64,000 nucleotides of DNA from positions 11,083 to 75,082 of the forward strand of contig JAGAOW010000059.1 in the NCBI GenBank assembly GCA_017889945.1, given 5' to 3'. The notes below the pieces were generated by a model. The model had not been told where the DNA came from and did no database searches. It was given only the letters and a program-made list of their open reading frames with translations. Below are positions 39,751-49,700 of the stretch, piece by piece (position 1 is the stretch's first letter; each line of letters starts with the position of its first letter). Source of the DNA: Muribaculaceae bacterium. GTDB lineage: Bacteria; Bacteroidota; Bacteroidia; Bacteroidales; Muribaculaceae. The translations under genes and the position numbers were made by a program.

Positions 39751-40035
39751 ATGGACTTGAATAAACAGAACGCAGCAGCAGCGGCAACAGTAGCGAAAGC
39801 AGCCGCTGAAGTTTCGGCAACAGCCGCAAAAGATGCAGTTACCGCCGAAAGTAAGGATTTGAAAGACAAAGCAGCAGACGCAATAGCTAACGCCAAAGAC
39901 ACAATAGTCGATAAAGCACAGGCTGTAACAGATAAAGTAAAGGAAGTCACAGCCAATGCGCTCGATAAAGGCGCAGACATGATTGACTCACTCGCTGACA
40001 AAGCGCACAACGCTGCAGCAGGTCTCAAGAGTTAA
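39751..40035 (+). CDS. Small Ala/Lys/Asp-rich hydrophilic protein with 11-mer repeats (LEA-like)
   Basis: KDKAADAIANA/KDTIVDKAQAV/TDKVKEVTANA/LDKGADMIDSL/ADKAHNAAAGL; A-rich translation initiation region. Confidence 0.7.
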   Translation: MDLNKQNAAAAATVAKAAAEVSATAAKDAVTAESKDLKDKAADAIANAKDTIVDKAQAVTDKVKEVTANALDKGADMIDSLADKAHNAAAGLKS

Positions 40036-41173
40036 CGGGCGGAGTCGCAGTTTCTAAGATGAAACTGAACTGACCGCCGGGCGGCGTGAGTATCATCCTG
40101 CCGTCGACAATCCGCCGGTTTTCGACAACAACAGAGTCAGAGACCGGCTTTTTTTGTGCGGGACTTACGGAGTAGGTCGCTGCAATGCCGGGCGCTAAAA
40201 AGCGTTGGCTCAGGCTATGGGCCACGAAGCCCATAGTCATGCGCAGATTAAGTTCGACCGTTGCGTCGAGCAAAGCCTGTCCGTCGGGCATGCGTGCCAC
40301 AAGCATATCGACGCCGAGCGGGCCTGTGTAGCAGGGTGCAATCATTGACCCGACGGCGCATTGCAAGGCGGAGACTACGGCCGTGAGCTTATCTTTCGGA
40401 AAATAACGATCTATTTCATCGAGCAGAACATCATCTCCGGCAAGAAGGTTGCCACAATAGTTGCCGCCGTCGTCGGTCTTGAAAAACGAGTAGCCGACGA
40501 AATCGCATTTGCCATTTTCGCAAGTGAACAGACATGCGAAATCTGCGATGCGGTCATAAGCAGGTTCGACCATAACAGAGCCTTGACGACGGATGACTCC
40601 CACGCAGCGTCGCAACACTTCATCGGCTTTCATGCGGCGAGTGTCGGTCAATCCGCGTCCTGAACTCGACCAGGGGGATTTTATGATGCAGCAGGGGTGC
40701 TGATGTAGATATGCAGTCAGCATAGTGATGTCGGAAAATTCGACAGCTGCCTGTGCTATCTCAAAATCGAGCCGAGGGGCGATTGCCTTCCTTAGTTCGG
40801 CTGCTGTGCGCCGATGAGACAGCTGCCGATAGCGTTCGAGTTGCCTGTCGTCGGGCAGCAGAGACGGCTGAAAGCCTTCGGCGGCGAAATCGCGTCGCGC
40901 AGCCGCAGACCAACCCCAAGGTGTAGGGGCATAGTCAGCCGCAGACTGATGGTCGAAAATATCGACATCTATGCCAAAGCGTTCGCGGACCATGTCGAGC
41001 CAGCGCGCGTTGATGCCGTAAGCGAGCAGACGGTCGCCGTTGTCGGCATACCACAGTGGTAGTGCAGCTCCGGCGTTGCGCAGAGCAAGTGCGGCTTTCG
41101 GCGGCGTGAACTGCTGAAGCCCTGAAGCTAAAACGATGTCGTTTTCCGGGTTGAACAGATGAAGTTTTTGCAT
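40025..41173 (-). CDS. Hypothetical ATP-grasp-fold protein
   Basis: PWGW, IIKSPWSSSGRG, VMVEP, GPLGVDML and VELNLRMTMG resemble ATP-grasp ligase motifs. Confidence 0.65.
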   Translation of the reverse strand: MQKLHLFNPENDIVLASGLQQFTPPKAALALRNAGAALPLWYADNGDRLLAYGINARWLDMVRERFGIDVDIFDHQSAADYAPTPWGWSAAARRDFAAEGFQPSLLPDDRQLERYRQLSHRRTAAELRKAIAPRLDFEIAQAAVEFSDITMLTAYLHQHPCCIIKSPWSSSGRGLTDTRRMKADEVLRRCVGVIRRQGSVMVEPAYDRIADFACLFTCENGKCDFVGYSFFKTDDGGNYCGNLLAGDDVLLDEIDRYFPKDKLTAVVSALQCAVGSMIAPCYTGPLGVDMLVARMPDGQALLDATVELNLRMTMGFVAHSLSQRFLAPGIAATYSVSPAQKKPVSDSVVVENRRIVDGRMILTPPGGQFSFILETATPPVNS

Positions 41174-41187
41174 AGTGCAAAATTACG

Positions 41188-41249
41188 AAAAAAGGCCGAA
41201 GGTTCGGCATCTAAAGTAGCGCGGCTAAAAGTCGGCCGAAGGTTCGGCT
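41188..41249. repeat. Two copies of the hairpin ggccgaaggttcggc
   Basis: 15-bp direct repeats at 41194 and 41234, each self-complementary. On the minus strand each is followed by a U-run. Confidence 0.75.
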
Positions 41250-41549
41250 GCAAACGCAACCATTGTTGATAGAAACTACAAAAGGACAAAATTTCAAGGT
41301 TCTAATTTGTTGGTGTGAAGGTCGCACGGGCAATGGCAGTGATGATTGCTGTTGCATTTTTTTCGATTGATAGTGATTGACTGACTATTTTTTTATTCGA
41401 AAAAGTTCATTCAAACTTTTTCATTTGCAATCAAACCTATTATTCATTTATTAAACATATAATAGTCAGATTATCAATACAATCGAAATCAATTGCGTAA
41501 GCAATCGCCGACCGCGCCCAAGGGGATTGCATTGCGCTGTGTGATTTTC
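41190..41549 (-). ncRNA. Candidate structured ncRNA (long bulged rod)
   Basis: Consensus promoter at 41556-41587, co-linear inverted segments spanning 41328-41519, no ORF, hairpin/U-run ends near 41225 or 41190. Confidence 0.5.
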
Positions 41550-41555
41550 ACGATG

Positions 41556-41587
41556 CAAAGATAATACGCATTTTGATTGTGTACAAA
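41556..41587 (-). promoter_or_regulatory. Consensus Bacteroidetes sigma-A promoter
   Basis: Minus strand reads TTTG-N20-TATCTTTG. Confidence 0.75.
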
Positions 41588-41651
41588 TGTTTTCGCAATT
41601 ATTTTTGAAAATAATCGCAAAAAGAAGAATAATAGCCAATTAATAGGGAAT

Positions 41652-41685
41652 AAAAAACAGGACACCTTCTCACGAGGGCGTCCTG
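41652..41685 (-). terminator. Strong intrinsic terminator
   Basis: Minus strand reads CAGGACGCCCTC-GTGA-GAAGGTGTCCTG-TTTTTT. Confidence 0.85.
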
Positions 41686-41895
41686 CGGTGTTTTAAAGAC
41701 TTAAAACAATTACATAACTAACATAAAACACATTATCTATATCTTTTATAAATACCCGTTTTTAATCAAAGAGAGGGTTTCGATTCAGGTAACGAGATAC
41801 CTGCTGACTTTAAAATCAGATTTTGATGTTTTCAGATGTTAATGGTGTCATACAATCAAAATAAGTGTAAGTCGATAAGAGAATCATAAATTTTA
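41652..41895 (-). ncRNA. Candidate ~240-nt sRNA (possibly carrying a 23-codon small ORF)
   Basis: TAATTTTG box at 41901-41908, U/G-rich unstructured tract at 41701-41736, terminator at 41652-41685. Confidence 0.55.
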
Positions 41896-42037
41896 CGATG
41901 CAAAATTAATATGCCCTGACGAGCTTTGCAACGCTATATGACCGAGGTATAAGACGATATAAGATTATGGTTGAAGCAAGTGGTTGATTAATAGCGGTAT
42001 GGGCAAATTGAAAGTGTTCATTAATATAACAGTTCTA

Positions 42038-43594
42038 TTACGCCATAGGTGCGATTTTCATGACGTCGGCCTCGAAATTATCCTTGTCGACAGCGCGAGA
42101 ACGCAGTCGATTTCTATAAGAATAGATAGTATTGAGCGAGTAGTTGAGGATTTGGGCTATAGTAGCCGAGTCGTCGATTCCCATCCTCATGATGGCGAGA
42201 ATGCGGAGGTCGGTGTTGAGGGATTCTCCCTCCTTGAGAGTGATTGCACAGTCGGGGCGCAGCAGATTGTTGACTTTCTCGGCAAAATCAGGGTAGATGT
42301 GGAGGAAGGCATCGTCGAAGACGACATAGAAATCGGCGTTCTGCTCCTCGATAAATTTCCCGGATTTGAGCATGCGTGACAGTTCGTCGGCTTTGCCGGC
42401 AGATATTTTTCGGTCGGCTAGTTTGACAAATTTGTTGAGCTTGTCCATATAAATCGAACAGAGTTTGAGGAACTGGCCGATATACATATTTTTTCCGTTG
42501 TTGGCGATGCGCAACCTCGCTTCGAGCCTGCGCATGCGCTTCATCTCACGGTAGAGGACAAATAATGTAGCCACAAGGACGGTCAGGAGCAGGAACATTA
42601 TCGCCATAATCACATATATGGAATTGCGCCAAGAGTCGGCCTGACCATTGTAAGTACTGGCGATAATGGGCATGGCTTTGGAGGATTCGACCATGCGCAG
42701 AGTCGCGGCACAGCGCACGGCATTGTCGAGGGCAGTCGACAGATAGCGATATGAGCGATTGATGTCGCCGTCGTCGTAGAGAGTAGTGCCAAGTTCCTGA
42801 AGTGATGCCACTTCGAGTGTGGCCGACTCCATGTCGGCAATCGACGAACAGGCGAGATAGAATTTGTAGGCGTCGCGGTCGCCCTGACGCCGAGCGATAG
42901 ACGACAGATGATGATTGGCGCGCGCAAGCAGGCCCTTGTCGGCGGTGCGGTCGATGAGTTCGCCCAGAAGGGCCTTTGCTTTGGACAGACTGCCTGTCAA
43001 GAGGCAGTATTCGCCGAGATTGAACAGATACTCGTCGCTGCTGCGGTCGAGAACCGCGAGCAGACACTGTTGACGGTCGAGCGCCTTGGCCTGATACAGC
43101 TCCTTGTATGGTTTGAAATCAGAATATGCCGAGGCAATGTAGCTATAGAGCTTGCGACCGCTTTCATAGTAGAGTCCGGGGTCGGCACGGTGTGCTTCGA
43201 GGCTGTCGATAGACTCATATTCGATGACCGCTGCCTCGAACAGCCCGGCAAGAGGCATGAGCGCTGTCCGTTTGAGTTGCGCCGCAATGCGGTCGCCATC
43301 GTCAACGGCAGCGTTAAACGCAAGGTCGAAATATGCCAGAGCGGAGTCATTGGAAAACGATGTGTAGGTGTCGCCGATTTCCATCAGAGTGGCAAAGTTC
43401 TCTGACTCGCTGTAGACCTGCTTCAGCGAATCGATTTTGCTCTGCCGCTGCGAGATAATCGCCGCTCGTCGGTCGAGAGTGCGGTCAAGCCGGCTGATGG
43501 CCTTGTCGAGTTGGTCACGGCTTATCTCTCCGGCTGCAAAAGCGGGAAAGACAGCGAGCAAGACAAAAAGCAATGACGCAAGACAAGACCTCAT
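42038..43594 (-). CDS. DUF6377 / SusR-like membrane-spanning transcriptional regulator
   Basis: Signal peptide, TPR-like periplasmic region, single TM, YIGQFLKLCSIY, FDDAFLHIYPDF and HTH LNTDLRI...IAQILNYSLNTIYSYRNR. Confidence 0.88.
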   Translation of the reverse strand: MRSCLASLLFVLLAVFPAFAAGEISRDQLDKAISRLDRTLDRRAAIISQRQSKIDSLKQVYSESENFATLMEIGDTYTSFSNDSALAYFDLAFNAAVDDGDRIAAQLKRTALMPLAGLFEAAVIEYESIDSLEAHRADPGLYYESGRKLYSYIASAYSDFKPYKELYQAKALDRQQCLLAVLDRSSDEYLFNLGEYCLLTGSLSKAKALLGELIDRTADKGLLARANHHLSSIARRQGDRDAYKFYLACSSIADMESATLEVASLQELGTTLYDDGDINRSYRYLSTALDNAVRCAATLRMVESSKAMPIIASTYNGQADSWRNSIYVIMAIMFLLLTVLVATLFVLYREMKRMRRLEARLRIANNGKNMYIGQFLKLCSIYMDKLNKFVKLADRKISAGKADELSRMLKSGKFIEEQNADFYVVFDDAFLHIYPDFAEKVNNLLRPDCAITLKEGESLNTDLRILAIMRMGIDDSATIAQILNYSLNTIYSYRNRLRSRAVDKDNFEADVMKIAPMA

Positions 43595-43605
43595 AAGCGG
43601 GAGTA

Positions 43606-45519
43606 TCAATTGAAAAGGCGCGAAAGCTCGTCCATTGCGACAGTGACGATAATGGTCAGTCCGTCGGGTGTGAAATTGGGCGCTGAGGTCTTGAACAAGT
43701 CAGCCACAAGCATGTCAGTCTCAGCCTCCGACATGCGGTTGCTGACATTGACAGCCGCAGTTTTGGCCATCGACGATGCGATTGTGCGGAACAATTCAGT
43801 GTCGGGGAGTTCGCCGGTCTGCGATACCTTCTCGATGATGTCGACGATGGTTTCGCGAGGCGAGGCGGCGCTCAGAGCCGAGGGCATGCCGTTGACGGCC
43901 CAGGTGTTGTCGCCCAAGGGCGACAGGTCGAAGCCCAGACGCGCCATAGAGTCGCATATCGAGGCCAGTACAAGATCCTGCGAGACGCTCAGAACGACAG
44001 ACTCGGGGAAAATCATGCGCTGAGTCGCAATGCGACCGTCGGCGATTCCGGCCATGATGCGTTCGTAAAGCACGCGCACATGGGCGCGATGCCGGTCAAT
44101 GACCATCAGGCCGTCGCGCACTGGAGTGGCGATGTATTTGTAGCCGACGGTAATATATGACGGAGTCGGACTATGGCCAGCAACAGCCGACGACTGATTA
44201 GAATCGGCATCGGGCAACTCGTCGAGCCCCATCTGACGGACAGCGGGACGCGACTGCTCCAAAATGTTGAGGGCGCTGCGCACTTCGGCAAGCGAAGCCG
44301 TGCGCTCACGGCCCAAAGCAGAAGGGCGTTCGTTCCATCCGGCAGAAGATGTGCGGTTTGGAGATGTGGCGACATCGGGGAATTGATCCTGACTGACAGC
44401 TATGTCCGCCGTAAAGGGGTTGTATGAAGCGTCGACATCCACTTTGGCCGAACCGCCGACTGCGGGGTCAAAAGCCGGAATATCGGGGGCATCCTCGACG
44501 TTGAAATCGATAGCTCCCGAAGCATTGGTCTTGCCGAGAGCCTCGCGGACAGCGGCGACAACAATCTGCCATATGGCCTGTTCGTCCTCGAACTTAATCT
44601 CATGTTTCTGAGGATGGATGTTGACATCAATCCTGTCAGGGTCGACCTCGAAATTGATGAAATAAGAGGGCTGGACGTCAGAAGCCACAAGATGCTCGAA
44701 ACAGCTCATAACCGCGCGATGGAAGTAAGGATGACGCATGTTGCGGCCATTGACAAAGAGATATTGGTGTGCGCCGCGACGGCGAGCATACTGCGGCAGT
44801 CCGACAAAGCCCGACAATTTCACGAGCGATGTTTCGGTCGCAAGCGGAATAATCTGCCGTTCGATCGCCTTGCCGAAGAGTTCGCCGATGCGCATACGCA
44901 GCGAACCGTGGAGCAGACGATGGAGTGTGACGTCGTTGTGGATGAGTGTGAAATCGACGTCGGTATTGACAAGTGCGAGGCGTTCGAACTCATGGATTAT
45001 GTGACCGAGTTCGACCGAGTCTTTCTTGAGGAATTTTCGTCGGGCGGGGAGGTAGGCAAAGAGATTCTTTACCATGATATTCGAGCCGGGCACACATGCG
45101 CAAGGCTCTTGCGACTCCATTTTCGAGGCGGCGATAACCAAACGGCTGCCGACTTTGTCGTCGCGGCGCATGGTGCGCAACTCAATCTGAGCCACCGCAG
45201 CAATCGAGGCGAGCGCCTCGCCACGGAAGCCCATGGTGTGGAGCGAATATAAATCCTCGGCGGCTGCAATCTTGCTTGTTGCATGGCGCTCGAAAGCCAT
45301 ACGGGCATCGGTCGGCGACATGCCTGAACCGTTGTCGACGACCTGAATAAGGGTGCGTCCGGCATCCTTGATGATAATGCTGATGTCGGTCGCGCCTGCG
45401 TCGATGGCATTCTCAACCAGTTCCTTAACAACAGAAGCGGGTCGCTGAATGACTTCGCCGGCAGCAATCTGATTGGCCACCGAATCGGGCAGAAGTTTTA
45501 TGATGTCGCTATCGGGCAT
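43606..45519 (-). CDS. mutL: DNA mismatch repair endonuclease MutL
   Basis: NQIAAGEVIQRP, KELVENAIDAG, GFRGEAL and DVNIHP. Confidence 0.96.
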   Translation of the reverse strand: MPDSDIIKLLPDSVANQIAAGEVIQRPASVVKELVENAIDAGATDISIIIKDAGRTLIQVVDNGSGMSPTDARMAFERHATSKIAAAEDLYSLHTMGFRGEALASIAAVAQIELRTMRRDDKVGSRLVIAASKMESQEPCACVPGSNIMVKNLFAYLPARRKFLKKDSVELGHIIHEFERLALVNTDVDFTLIHNDVTLHRLLHGSLRMRIGELFGKAIERQIIPLATETSLVKLSGFVGLPQYARRRGAHQYLFVNGRNMRHPYFHRAVMSCFEHLVASDVQPSYFINFEVDPDRIDVNIHPQKHEIKFEDEQAIWQIVVAAVREALGKTNASGAIDFNVEDAPDIPAFDPAVGGSAKVDVDASYNPFTADIAVSQDQFPDVATSPNRTSSAGWNERPSALGRERTASLAEVRSALNILEQSRPAVRQMGLDELPDADSNQSSAVAGHSPTPSYITVGYKYIATPVRDGLMVIDRHRAHVRVLYERIMAGIADGRIATQRMIFPESVVLSVSQDLVLASICDSMARLGFDLSPLGDNTWAVNGMPSALSAASPRETIVDIIEKVSQTGELPDTELFRTIASSMAKTAAVNVSNRMSEAETDMLVADLFKTSAPNFTPDGLTIIVTVAMDELSRLFN

Positions 45520-49574: not shown

Positions 49575-49591
49575 GCGGATATTGTAAATAA

Positions 49592-49700
49592 ATTTGCTTT
49601 TGCACTCGACTTATTCGTATCTTTGACCTCGGTCTTAGATACTCTCGCTCGGCAAAATCAAATTTTATTTGCTTTTGCACTCGACTTATTCGTATCTTTG
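49592..49700 (+). repeat. 34-bp perfect direct repeat (75-bp period), each copy a sigma-A promoter
   Basis: atttgcttttgcactcgacttattcgtatctttg at 49592-49625 and 49667-49700; each copy reads TTTG-N21-TATCTTTG. Confidence 0.85.

What the first reader, a model, noticed from the sequence alone, without database searches (positions are those of the whole stretch)
41190..41587. Promoter-driven, ORF-free RNA folding into a ~190-nt bulged rod
Seen: a consensus minus-strand promoter (TTTG-N20-TATCTTTG, 41556-87) with no ORF behind it. Four co-linear complementary blocks: gggca 41328-32/cgccc 41515-19, gattgct 41344-50/agcaatc 41500-06, tttcgattg 41361-69/caatcgaaa 41480-88 and ctgactatt 41381-89/aatagtcag 41461-69. 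An apical hairpin (41399-41422) caps them, and hairpin plus U-run ends lie near 41225 and 41190. Inferred: regularly spaced helices with mismatched internal loops suggest a structural ncRNA (6S-like DNA mimic, protein sponge or RNase III substrate) rather than a recent inverted duplication. I cannot assign it to a known family.
Basis: partly seen in the sequence, partly recalled or inferred. Interest (0 to 1): 0.7.

Follow-up and report, generated by a model that had tools for sequence, protein, structure and literature searches.

The report
Multi-copy promoter-bearing rod-RNA insertion element
The promoter and rod-shaped fold are real, but this is one of at least twelve scattered copies of a species-specific inserted repeat (promoter, hairpin RNA, terminators), absent from the same sites in sister species, so it is a MITE-like mobile module and not a unique 6S-like RNA gene.

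Summary
Observation confirmed. A Bacteroidetes-type promoter (TTTG-N20-TATCTTTG, 41556-41587, minus strand) precedes an ORF-free stretch. That stretch folds into a bulged rod (z = -5.8) and is followed by two hairpin-plus-U-run terminators.

The rod is longer than reported. A closing stem extends it to 41310-41555 (246 nt).

It is not a unique gene:
- The 2.26-Mb assembly holds 12 full-length and 2 truncated copies between unrelated core genes (nadC, argS, dnaA, maf and others).
- Each copy is a complete unit of promoter, 205-315-nt rod, tail and small terminators.
- No copy turned up in about 150 other genomes of the genus, or in the public genome, metagenome, phage, plasmid and viral collections searched.
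- Two sister species have "empty sites". At this locus about 445 nt (41186-41630) are extra in this genome. At the dnaA/nitroreductase locus 760 nt are extra.

Evidence on constraint is mixed:
- For constraint: the promoter hexamers are kept in every copy while the spacers vary, a 26-nt 5' box is identical in 9 copies, and helices change more slowly than loops.
- Against RNA-level selection: no compensatory changes, and the opposite strand folds equally well or better.

Best reading: a lineage-specific, MITE-like "mobile transcription unit". The 6S-like reading is not supported. Interest is moderate.

The parts
41186..41630 (-). Whole inserted repeat unit (operator-like palindrome, promoter, rod RNA, tail, two terminators).
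   Evidence: This stretch is extra DNA relative to sister species G109 and G023, whose flanks align on both sides. Homology to the other copies runs from -77 to about +360 relative to the core start.
41590..41623 (.). Near-perfect palindrome just upstream of the -33 box, present in the 'class I' copies. It is operator-like and its function is unknown.
   Evidence: Inverted repeat I3 has 16-nt arms that are 88% complementary. The same 30-mer, with up to 4 mismatches, occurs in 5 copies.
41556..41587 (-). Bacteroidetes-type promoter TTTG-N20-TATCTTTG.
   Evidence: The same motif sits at the same offset (-32) in all 12 copies that have upstream DNA, while the spacers differ. No such motif occurs on the antisense strand.
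41526..41551 (-). Conserved 5' box, a 26-mer beginning GTGAAAATCACAC. It forms the 5' half of the closing stem.
   Evidence: It is identical in 9 copies, has 1 mismatch in a tenth and 3 in an eleventh.
41310..41555 (-). Rod-folding core (246 nt).
   Evidence: Folds. Covariance model R1 scores it at 198.8 bits.
41399..41422 (-). Apical A5G/CU5 hairpin.
   Evidence: It is present in the fold. The stem is kept in all 12 copies, with UA-to-CG changes at one pair in C53 and C139.
41313..41329 (-). Conserved 3' box (CCGTGCGnCTTTCACAC type). It forms the 3' half of the closing stem.
   Evidence: 8 copies match within 2 mismatches. It pairs with the 5' box.
41277..41309 (-). Conserved single-stranded tail (TTAGAACCTTGAAAT type).
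   Evidence: Alignments.
41226..41249 (-). First intrinsic-terminator module ('Y': GCCGAACCTTCGGC hairpin followed by a U-run).
   Evidence: The Y module occurs 19 times in the genome, including sites away from rod copies.
41188..41208 (-). Second Y terminator, with a U6 run.
41171..41185 (-). Ancestral -7 box (TAATTTTG, 41178-41185) and ATG (41171-41173) of the downstream 382-aa gene, directly abutting the insertion.
   Evidence: It aligns with TAACTTTG-ATG in G109 and G023. Those species have a TTTG -33 box 20-22 nt upstream, where G000 has the terminator instead.

Best explanation
The feature is one copy of a lineage-specific interspersed repeat. Each copy is a self-contained transcription unit of about 410-450 bp:
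- an optional palindromic operator-like site;
- a Bacteroidetes TTTG/TAnnTTTG promoter;
- a 205-315-nt imperfect palindrome that folds into a bulged rod, with a conserved 5' box and 3' box forming the closing stem and a conserved A5G/CU5 apical hairpin;
- a tail of about 50 nt;
- one to four small intrinsic terminators.

The unit multiplied to at least 12 intergenic sites in this species' lineage. It behaves like a MITE in being small, non-coding, multi-copy, species-restricted and an insertion relative to relatives. It now appears fixed and largely quiescent.

Its likely effect is in cis. It brings a promoter, a highly structured transcript and leaky terminators into intergenic regions. At this locus it sits between the terminator of a conserved small-RNA gene and the -7 box of the 382-aa gene, where sister species carry that gene's -33 box. 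Transcription of that gene probably now depends partly on read-through from the element.

Shown: multi-copy status, anatomy, fold, insertion, promoter conservation. Inferred: transcription start and end, read-through, the cis effect, and any processing of the duplex (for example by RNase III).
For: - Copy number. There are 12 full-length and 2 truncated copies in the 2.26-Mb assembly, found by BLAST, nhmmer and the covariance model.
- Flanks. The neighbouring genes are unrelated core genes: nadC, argS, dnaA, maf, apbE, a nitroreductase and the priA operon.
- Orientation. 8 of 11 copies point the same way as the next gene and 3 are convergent with it.
- Empty site 1. G109 and G023 align with the window on both sides but lack about 445 nt. 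The intergenic lengths are 864, 475 and 408 nt.
- Empty site 2. In G023 the stop codons of dnaA (81% identical protein) and the nitroreductase gene lie 4 nt apart. G000 has 760 nt of repeat mosaic there, including a rod copy.
- Distribution. No copy was found in 158 other genus genomes by the 26-mer with up to 3 mismatches, in 150 by the covariance model, or in the three closest species at E <= 1. There was no true match in genome, metagenome, viral, phage or plasmid collections; the only hit was one chance match in an actinobacterial genome.
- Promoter. The motif is kept at the same offset in all 12 copies that have upstream DNA although the spacers diverge. Between two strains, 9 substitutions fall in the promoter-containing 100-nt window (C31:8700-8799) without touching the consensus positions.
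- Polarity. The terminator modules point the same way as the promoter in every copy.
- RNA-library cover. Contigs cover 41380-41530 and 41055-41362. The second bridges the terminators and the start codon of the 382-aa gene.
- Fixation. Copies are present at the same loci in contigs from 5-10 independent samples at three loci.
Against: - Unit ends. The repeated unit is not bounded by terminal inverted repeats. The palindrome is internal, and homology extends 67-77 nt upstream and at least 90 nt downstream of it.
- Transposition marks. No target-site duplication could be defined, and no autonomous partner element or Y1 (HUH) transposase was found. The mechanism of spread is therefore unknown.
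- Uneven conservation, which suggests more than a neutral repeat. The 26-nt 5' box is identical in 9 copies whose interiors are only 71-79% identical. Helix columns are invariant far more often than loop columns (74% against 31% in the interior, p = 2e-7; the same trend holds with single-sequence folds).
- Transcription evidence. It rests on assembled contigs from one RNA library at low depth. These carry no strand information, and DNA carry-over cannot be excluded.
Confidence: 0.6

Rival explanations
1. A family of paralogous, trans-acting structured small RNAs that is maintained by selection. In logic it would resemble the multi-copy FopS sRNAs of Bacteroides. The invariant 5' box, the apical hairpin or the long duplex would bind a protein or target RNAs, and having many copies would give dosage or differential regulation.
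For: - The 26-nt 5' box is identical in 9 copies.
- The promoter consensus positions are invariant in all copies while the spacers vary.
- Stems are conserved more than loops, and 47 of 51 gapped columns lie in loops.
- The apical hairpin is kept in the most diverged copies, with a UA-to-CG change.
- Every copy has its own terminators, and three copies are convergent with the next gene, so they cannot be leaders.
- Multi-copy sRNA families with canonical promoters are documented in Bacteroides (PMC11697453).
Against: - The family is restricted to one species among about 150 genomes of the genus and is absent from the three nearest species.
- There were 0 compensatory double changes, and the covariation score did not exceed the shuffles, among the 7 best-aligned copies.
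- The antisense strand folds as well or better in 9 of 12 copies.
- Diverged copies have weak fold scores (z = -0.8 for the sense strand of C135).
- The 5' box is sequestered in the closing stem rather than exposed as a seed.
- There is no Rfam match, including to the deposited FopS model, at E <= 10.
Confidence: 0.25
2. A DNA-level element. The long imperfect palindrome would act as a single-stranded hairpin or cruciform recognised by a recombinase or a DNA-binding protein. In logic this resembles integron attC sites or REP elements: conserved ends with a variable centre. The promoter would be incidental.
For: - Both strands fold, and the non-transcribed strand folds better in 9 of 12 copies.
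- The conserved complementary end boxes enclose a centre that varies in length from 205 to 315 nt.
- The copies sit within mosaics of minisatellites and short hairpin modules whose repeat numbers differ between strains.
- Contigs from other samples join one rod body to the upstream regions of other copies. This is either recombination or mis-assembly.
Against: - The repeated unit extends well beyond the palindrome and is polar, with a promoter on one side and terminators on the other.
- No recombinase or integrase lies next to any copy.
- No Y1/HUH transposase was found in the genome, which is 89% complete.
- The copies are dispersed singly, not in arrays.
Confidence: 0.1
3. One reading: a single dedicated structural ncRNA gene, such as a 6S-like RNA polymerase mimic or a protein sponge.
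For: - The RNA would be rod-shaped with its 5' and 3' ends paired and with internal loops.
- Neither 6S model of Rfam finds a 6S gene in this assembly. For one of the two models the controls did not respond either.
Against: - There are 12-14 copies.
- The element is an insertion relative to sister species.
- It is not conserved in the genus.
- It gives no match to RF00013 or RF01685.
- The internal loops are the most variable parts, with no conserved central bubble.
Confidence: 0.03

Closest known systems
Correia repeat-enclosed elements (CREE/NEMIS) of Neisseria, and similar small mobile palindromic repeats such as ERIC (PMC2649163, PMC2229807)
   Same: Both are small, non-coding, multi-copy intergenic insertions. 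Both form a long hairpin when transcribed, can supply promoter activity to neighbouring genes and are candidate RNase III substrates. Both are restricted to a narrow lineage.
   Different: - Correia elements are 100-155 bp and are bounded by 26-bp terminal inverted repeats with a TA duplication; their promoters arise at the element ends.
- Here the repeated unit is about 410-450 bp and has a complete internal promoter upstream of the palindrome and its own terminators downstream.
- It has no inverted repeats at the unit ends, and no target duplication could be defined.
BrickBuilt MITE/minisatellite of Porphyromonas gingivalis (PMC4596501)
   Same: - Both occur in Bacteroidales, are species-specific, always intergenic and have about 19 versus about 14 copies.
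- Both contain promoter elements and are associated with tandem short repeats. Here 9-mer and 10-mer arrays flank many copies, and their repeat numbers vary between strains.
   Different: - BrickBuilt is built around a 23-nt tandem array with leader and tail subunits and small inverted-repeat ends.
- Here the core is a 205-315-nt imperfect palindrome, and the minisatellites are separate flanking modules that also occur without the rod.
- Sequence relatedness to BrickBuilt was not tested.
FopS/GibS multi-copy sRNA family of Bacteroides (PMC11697453)
   Same: Both have 12-15 dispersed paralogous copies per genome in a Bacteroidales member. In both, each copy has a canonical Bacteroidetes promoter and its own terminator, and the 5' portion is conserved.
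   Different: - FopS is short, with a single-stranded 5' seed and a terminator hairpin. It is conserved across Bacteroidaceae and is deposited in Rfam.
- This family is a 205-315-nt rod with its 5' end base-paired, is found in one species only, and gives no Rfam match.
6S RNA
   Same: Both are rod-like RNAs with paired ends and internal loops.
   Different: 6S is a single or dual-copy, widely conserved gene with a defined central bubble. This element is multi-copy, inserted, lineage-specific and variable in its loops, and it does not match the 6S models.

Membership tests
MITE (miniature inverted-repeat transposable element) | Small (below about 600 bp), non-coding and multi-copy. | tested here: met
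   The units are about 410-450 bp. There are 12 full-length and 2 truncated copies. No ORF is conserved across copies.
MITE (miniature inverted-repeat transposable element) | Terminal inverted repeats at the ends of the mobile unit. | tested here: not met
   Homology between copies extends 67-77 nt upstream and at least 90 nt downstream of the palindrome. The unit's ends (an A/T-rich promoter flank and a terminator) are not inverted repeats.
MITE (miniature inverted-repeat transposable element) | Target-site duplication. | tested here: inconclusive
   The junctions at the window locus were compared with the empty sites of G109 and G023. T-rich, similar sequences occur at both junctions, but the left one is part of the repeated unit, so no duplication can be called.
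MITE (miniature inverted-repeat transposable element) | Presence/absence polymorphism (filled versus empty sites). | tested here: met
   Empty sites exist in sister species at two loci. Within the species, the copies were present in all sampled contigs at three loci.
MITE (miniature inverted-repeat transposable element) | A related autonomous element with matching ends, or a cognate transposase. | tested here: not met
   Genome-wide BLAST finds only the units themselves. No Y1_Tnp was found. The assembly is 89% complete, and other transposase families were not searched.
6S RNA | Match to the 6S covariance models (RF00013, RF01685). | tested here: not met
   No match in the window at gathering score or at E <= 10, and none in the genome. 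The RF01685 search also gave no hits in its control genomes.
6S RNA | One or two copies per genome, conserved across related taxa. | tested here: not met
   12-14 copies. Absent in 150 genus genomes and at the orthologous sites of sister species.
FopS/GibS sRNA family | Match to the family's sequence/structure model (deposited in Rfam according to PMC11697453). | tested here: not met
   The Rfam 15 scan of 41100-42050 at E <= 10 returns only four chance-level matches to unrelated families.
FopS/GibS sRNA family | A single-stranded 5' seed followed by a terminator hairpin. | tested here: not met
   The 5' 30 nt are paired with the 3' box in every copy's fold.
Correia/CREE-type transcribed palindromic repeat | Hairpin RNA cleaved or bound by RNase III; promoter activity affecting the neighbouring gene. 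| not testable with these tools
   Only indirect evidence is available: a duplex of 60-84 bp interrupted by loops, a conserved promoter, and an RNA-library contig running from the rod into the downstream gene.

The most novel reading that the evidence does not exclude
The unit is a self-propagating small-RNA gene: a complete promoter-RNA-terminator cassette that spreads as DNA without terminal inverted repeats. It would also be functionally coupled to the expanded family of about 260-aa RecA-like (AAA_25) ATPases, which has at least 10 copies in this genome. Those genes are driven by the same promoter module and are preceded by the same 9-mer and 10-mer minisatellite cassette. Rod RNA and ATPase would then be two arms of one lineage-specific system, for example an RNA-scaffolded or RNA-regulated mobile or defence function.
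Probability: 0.08. Interest if true: 0.75.

Novelty: new variant of a known kind. Interest (0 to 1): 0.42.

Why it matters
- Annotation. A striking "promoter plus rod RNA" in a Bacteroidales gut genome can be an interspersed insertion module rather than a dedicated regulatory RNA gene. Copy number and empty-site checks should come before any functional reading.
- Biology. The family is unusual among bacterial small repeats because each copy is a full transcription unit, with its own promoter and terminators, and lacks terminal inverted repeats. It also shows signs of constraint: an invariant 5' box, preserved promoter hexamers, and helices conserved more than loops.
- If transcribed, it places about a dozen strong, structured transcripts and outward-reading promoters next to core genes such as argS, nadC, dnaA and maf. 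This gives a concrete case for studying how paralogous sRNA families arise and disperse in Bacteroidales. That question is also open for FopS.

Tried and rejected
- Rfam. At gathering score and at E <= 10 there is no family for the rod. The 6S models find nothing in the genome.
- Covariation. Among the 7 alignable copies there are 0 double changes, and nothing exceeds the shuffles. The model-fitted alignment of 12 copies shows scattered double changes in the diverged copies, but that alignment is biased towards the structure, so I did not count them as support.
- Strand test. The sense strand is not favoured: the antisense strand folds as well or better in 9 of 12 copies.
- Small peptide. A 20-aa GTG frame (MKITQRNAI...) is present in 6 copies. 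It is frameshifted or cut short in C151, C53, C23 and C139, and its variable part is not conserved at the amino-acid level. Rejected.
- Long-range pairing. Pairing of the purine-rich 5' internal loop with the C-rich terminator modules does not exceed composition-matched shuffles (z from -1.7 to +1.0). Rejected.
- Homology of the rod tail to the 5' UTR of the AAA_25 paralogues. Local alignment scores lie within the shuffle range. Not shown.
- Leader of a paralogous gene family. The downstream genes are unrelated. Rejected.
- Strain polymorphism as a test of constraint. The rod differs by 1 substitution and 1 indel between two strain lineages, which matches the genomic background of about 1%. 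Uninformative.
- Search for an empty site within the species. All contigs found at three loci carry the copy. Four other flanking proteins had no exact record.
- Other empty-site loci. The maf and argS loci of sister species are not syntenic enough to use.
- RNA-library contigs. None were laid on 41564-41671. Because these are assembled contigs, that gap is not evidence of a transcript boundary.
- Exact or degenerate 5'-box patterns in public genome, metagenome and viral collections. There was only one chance hit, in an actinobacterium. No match in phage or plasmid records.

Full report
**Observation.**
- The region lies in an 864-nt gap between two minus-strand genes. One is a 382-aa protein without a Pfam family (40025-41173). 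The other is a SusR-like DUF6377 regulator (42038-43609).
- The minus strand of 41556-41587 reads TTTG-N20-TATCTTTG. This pattern occurs 10 times in the window against 0.62 expected.
- The four complementary blocks, the apical hairpin and the two hairpin-plus-U-run ends are all present.
- The minus-strand RNA 41320-41525 folds at -61.5 kcal/mol with z = -5.75.
- A further closing stem extends the rod to 41310-41555, 246 nt.
- The plus strand also folds well.
- Rfam has no family for it.

**It is a repeat family.** BLAST, nhmmer and a covariance model built from seven copies find 12 full-length copies and 2 truncated ones in this 2.26-Mb, 226-contig assembly.
- Seven copies are 71-92% identical.
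- Two carry large insertions in the rod.
- Three are strongly diverged but still fold as rods with the same apical A5G/CU5 hairpin.
- Flanking genes are unrelated core genes: nadC, argS, dnaA, maf, apbE, a nitroreductase and the priA operon.
- Eight of eleven copies point towards the next gene and three are convergent with it.

**Anatomy of the unit.** Homology between copies runs from about -67/-77 to about +340 relative to the RNA core. In order, the unit contains:
- one of two alternative upstream modules, one of which is a near-perfect 30-bp palindrome (here 41590-41623);
- the promoter;
- a 26-nt 5' box that is identical in 9 copies;
- the variable rod;
- a conserved 3' box that pairs with the 5' box;
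- a tail of about 50 nt;
- one to four small terminator modules, which also occur elsewhere in the genome.

The unit's ends are not inverted repeats.

**It is an insertion.**
- In the two nearest species that have the orthologous locus (G109 and G023; the 382-aa protein is 61-64% identical), the SusR-like gene end, a conserved small-RNA-like unit with its terminator, and the -7 box plus ATG of the 382-aa gene all align with the window. About 445 nt (41186-41630) are present only here. The intergenic lengths are 864, 475 and 408 nt.
- Those species have a TTTG -33 box 20-22 nt upstream of the -7 box. In this genome that position is occupied by the element's last terminator.
- At a second locus, G023 has the stop codons of dnaA (81% identical) and the nitroreductase gene 4 nt apart. 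This genome has 760 nt of repeat mosaic there, including a rod copy.

**Distribution.**
- The 5' box with up to 3 mismatches is absent from 158 other genomes of the genus.
- The covariance model finds nothing in 150 of them, or in the three closest species at E <= 1.
- Public genome, metagenome, viral, phage and plasmid collections give no true match.
- Within the species, the copies at the maf, dnaA/nitroreductase and BACON-gene loci are present in every contig recovered, from 5-10 independent samples. The family is therefore fixed rather than currently jumping.

**Constraint.**
- For: the promoter hexamers sit at the same offset in all 12 copies that have upstream DNA while the spacers diverge, and there is no antisense promoter motif.
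- For: helix columns are invariant far more often than loop columns (74% against 31% in the interior), and 47 of 51 gapped columns are unpaired. The trend holds when each copy's own fold is used.
- Against selection at the RNA level: no compensatory double change and no excess covariation among the seven alignable copies.
- Against: the antisense strand folds as well or better in 9 of 12 copies.
- Against: some diverged copies have weak fold scores.
- Uninformative: polymorphism between strains in the rod equals the genomic background of about 1%.

**Transcription.** Contigs from a bovine-gut metatranscriptome library cover 41380-41530 and 41055-41362. The second runs across both terminators into the 382-aa gene. 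This is consistent with transcription from the predicted start and with read-through. But these are low-depth assembled contigs without strand information, and DNA carry-over cannot be excluded.

**Context.** Intergenic DNA of this genome is a mosaic of short repeat modules:
- tandem 9-mers (GTCYGAC type, 16 arrays);
- tandem 10-mers (TTAATC type, 17 arrays);
- the promoter module;
- the small terminators;
- a 51-nt hairpin module.

The same "9-mers, 10-mers, promoter" cassette precedes either a rod unit or one of at least 10 paralogous genes for a roughly 260-aa RecA-like AAA_25 ATPase. That gene family is also expanded in G023 and G129, but there it lacks this cassette. Repeat numbers of these modules differ between strains, and some contigs join one rod body to other copies' upstream regions.

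**Interpretation.**
- The best-supported reading (0.6) is a lineage-specific, MITE-like "mobile transcription unit". It inserted into at least 12 intergenic sites and mainly acts in cis as a promoter, structured transcript and leaky terminator.
- A selected trans-acting sRNA family (0.25) is the main rival. It is favoured by the invariant 5' box and the conserved helices. It is weakened by the species restriction, the lack of covariation and the lack of strand asymmetry.

**Comparison with known elements.** The element works like Correia/ERIC-type transcribed palindromic repeats and resembles P. gingivalis BrickBuilt in context. It fails the MITE criterion of terminal inverted repeats, so it is best filed as a new variant of interspersed transcribed repeats. 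It is not a member of the 6S or FopS families.

**Limits.**
- The assembly is an 89%-complete MAG broken at these very repeats, so the copy number is a lower bound.
- There are no raw strand-specific reads.
- The mechanism of spread is unknown.

Noticed in passing
window 41650-41915 (minus strand): A second, separate small-RNA-like unit lies directly upstream of the rod element. Its TAATTTTG box is near 41901-41908 and a strong terminator is at about 41650-41690. It is conserved in sister species G109 and G023, with a nearly invariant 3' part of about 100 nt. Contigs from three RNA libraries of two studies cover it. Unlike the rod, it looks like a genuine conserved sRNA gene next to the SusR-like regulator.
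   Followed up: partly
L070:8421-9206 (G000 C69) and L071:1911-2687 (C175); fragments at many contig ends: A paralogous family of at least 10 copies encodes a roughly 260-aa RecA-like AAA_25 ATPase. Nucleotide identity is 84-95%, and homology ends at the stop codon. Each gene is preceded by the same minisatellite-plus-promoter cassette as many rod copies. The family is also expanded in G023 (13 matches) and G129 (10 matches) and is rare elsewhere in the genus.
   Followed up: partly
for example L025 (C83) 1700-1760 and 2267-2400; L022 (C223) 600-740; L029 (C193) 395-560: There are tandem 9-mer (GTCYGAC type) and 10-mer (TTAATC type) minisatellites at 16-17 intergenic sites. They often flank rod units on both sides. 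Repeat numbers, and the number of terminator modules, differ between strains.
   Followed up: partly
window 49585-49625 and 49668-49700 (plus strand): Two tandem copies of a roughly 51-nt hairpin module that occurs about 20 times in the genome. Each copy contains a full TTTG-N21-TATCTTTG promoter-like match.
   Followed up: no
window 41171-41210: The 382-aa gene keeps its -7 box and a leader of only 4 nt before the ATG. In place of the -33 TTTG seen in sister species it has the element's last terminator. Its expression may now depend on read-through from the element.
   Followed up: partly
L096 and L100 (contigs from other samples) compared with G000 C83, C223 and C193: The rod body next to the nitroreductase gene is joined, in different assemblies, to the upstream regions of three different copies. 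This is either recombination between copies at the identical 5' region of about 75 nt, or assembly chimeras.
   Followed up: no
L123 and L125, positions 1-1025: In some strains a tyrosine integrase and an HTH gene lie about 1.5 kb upstream of the BACON-gene rod copy. This suggests a variable integrative element nearby.
   Followed up: no
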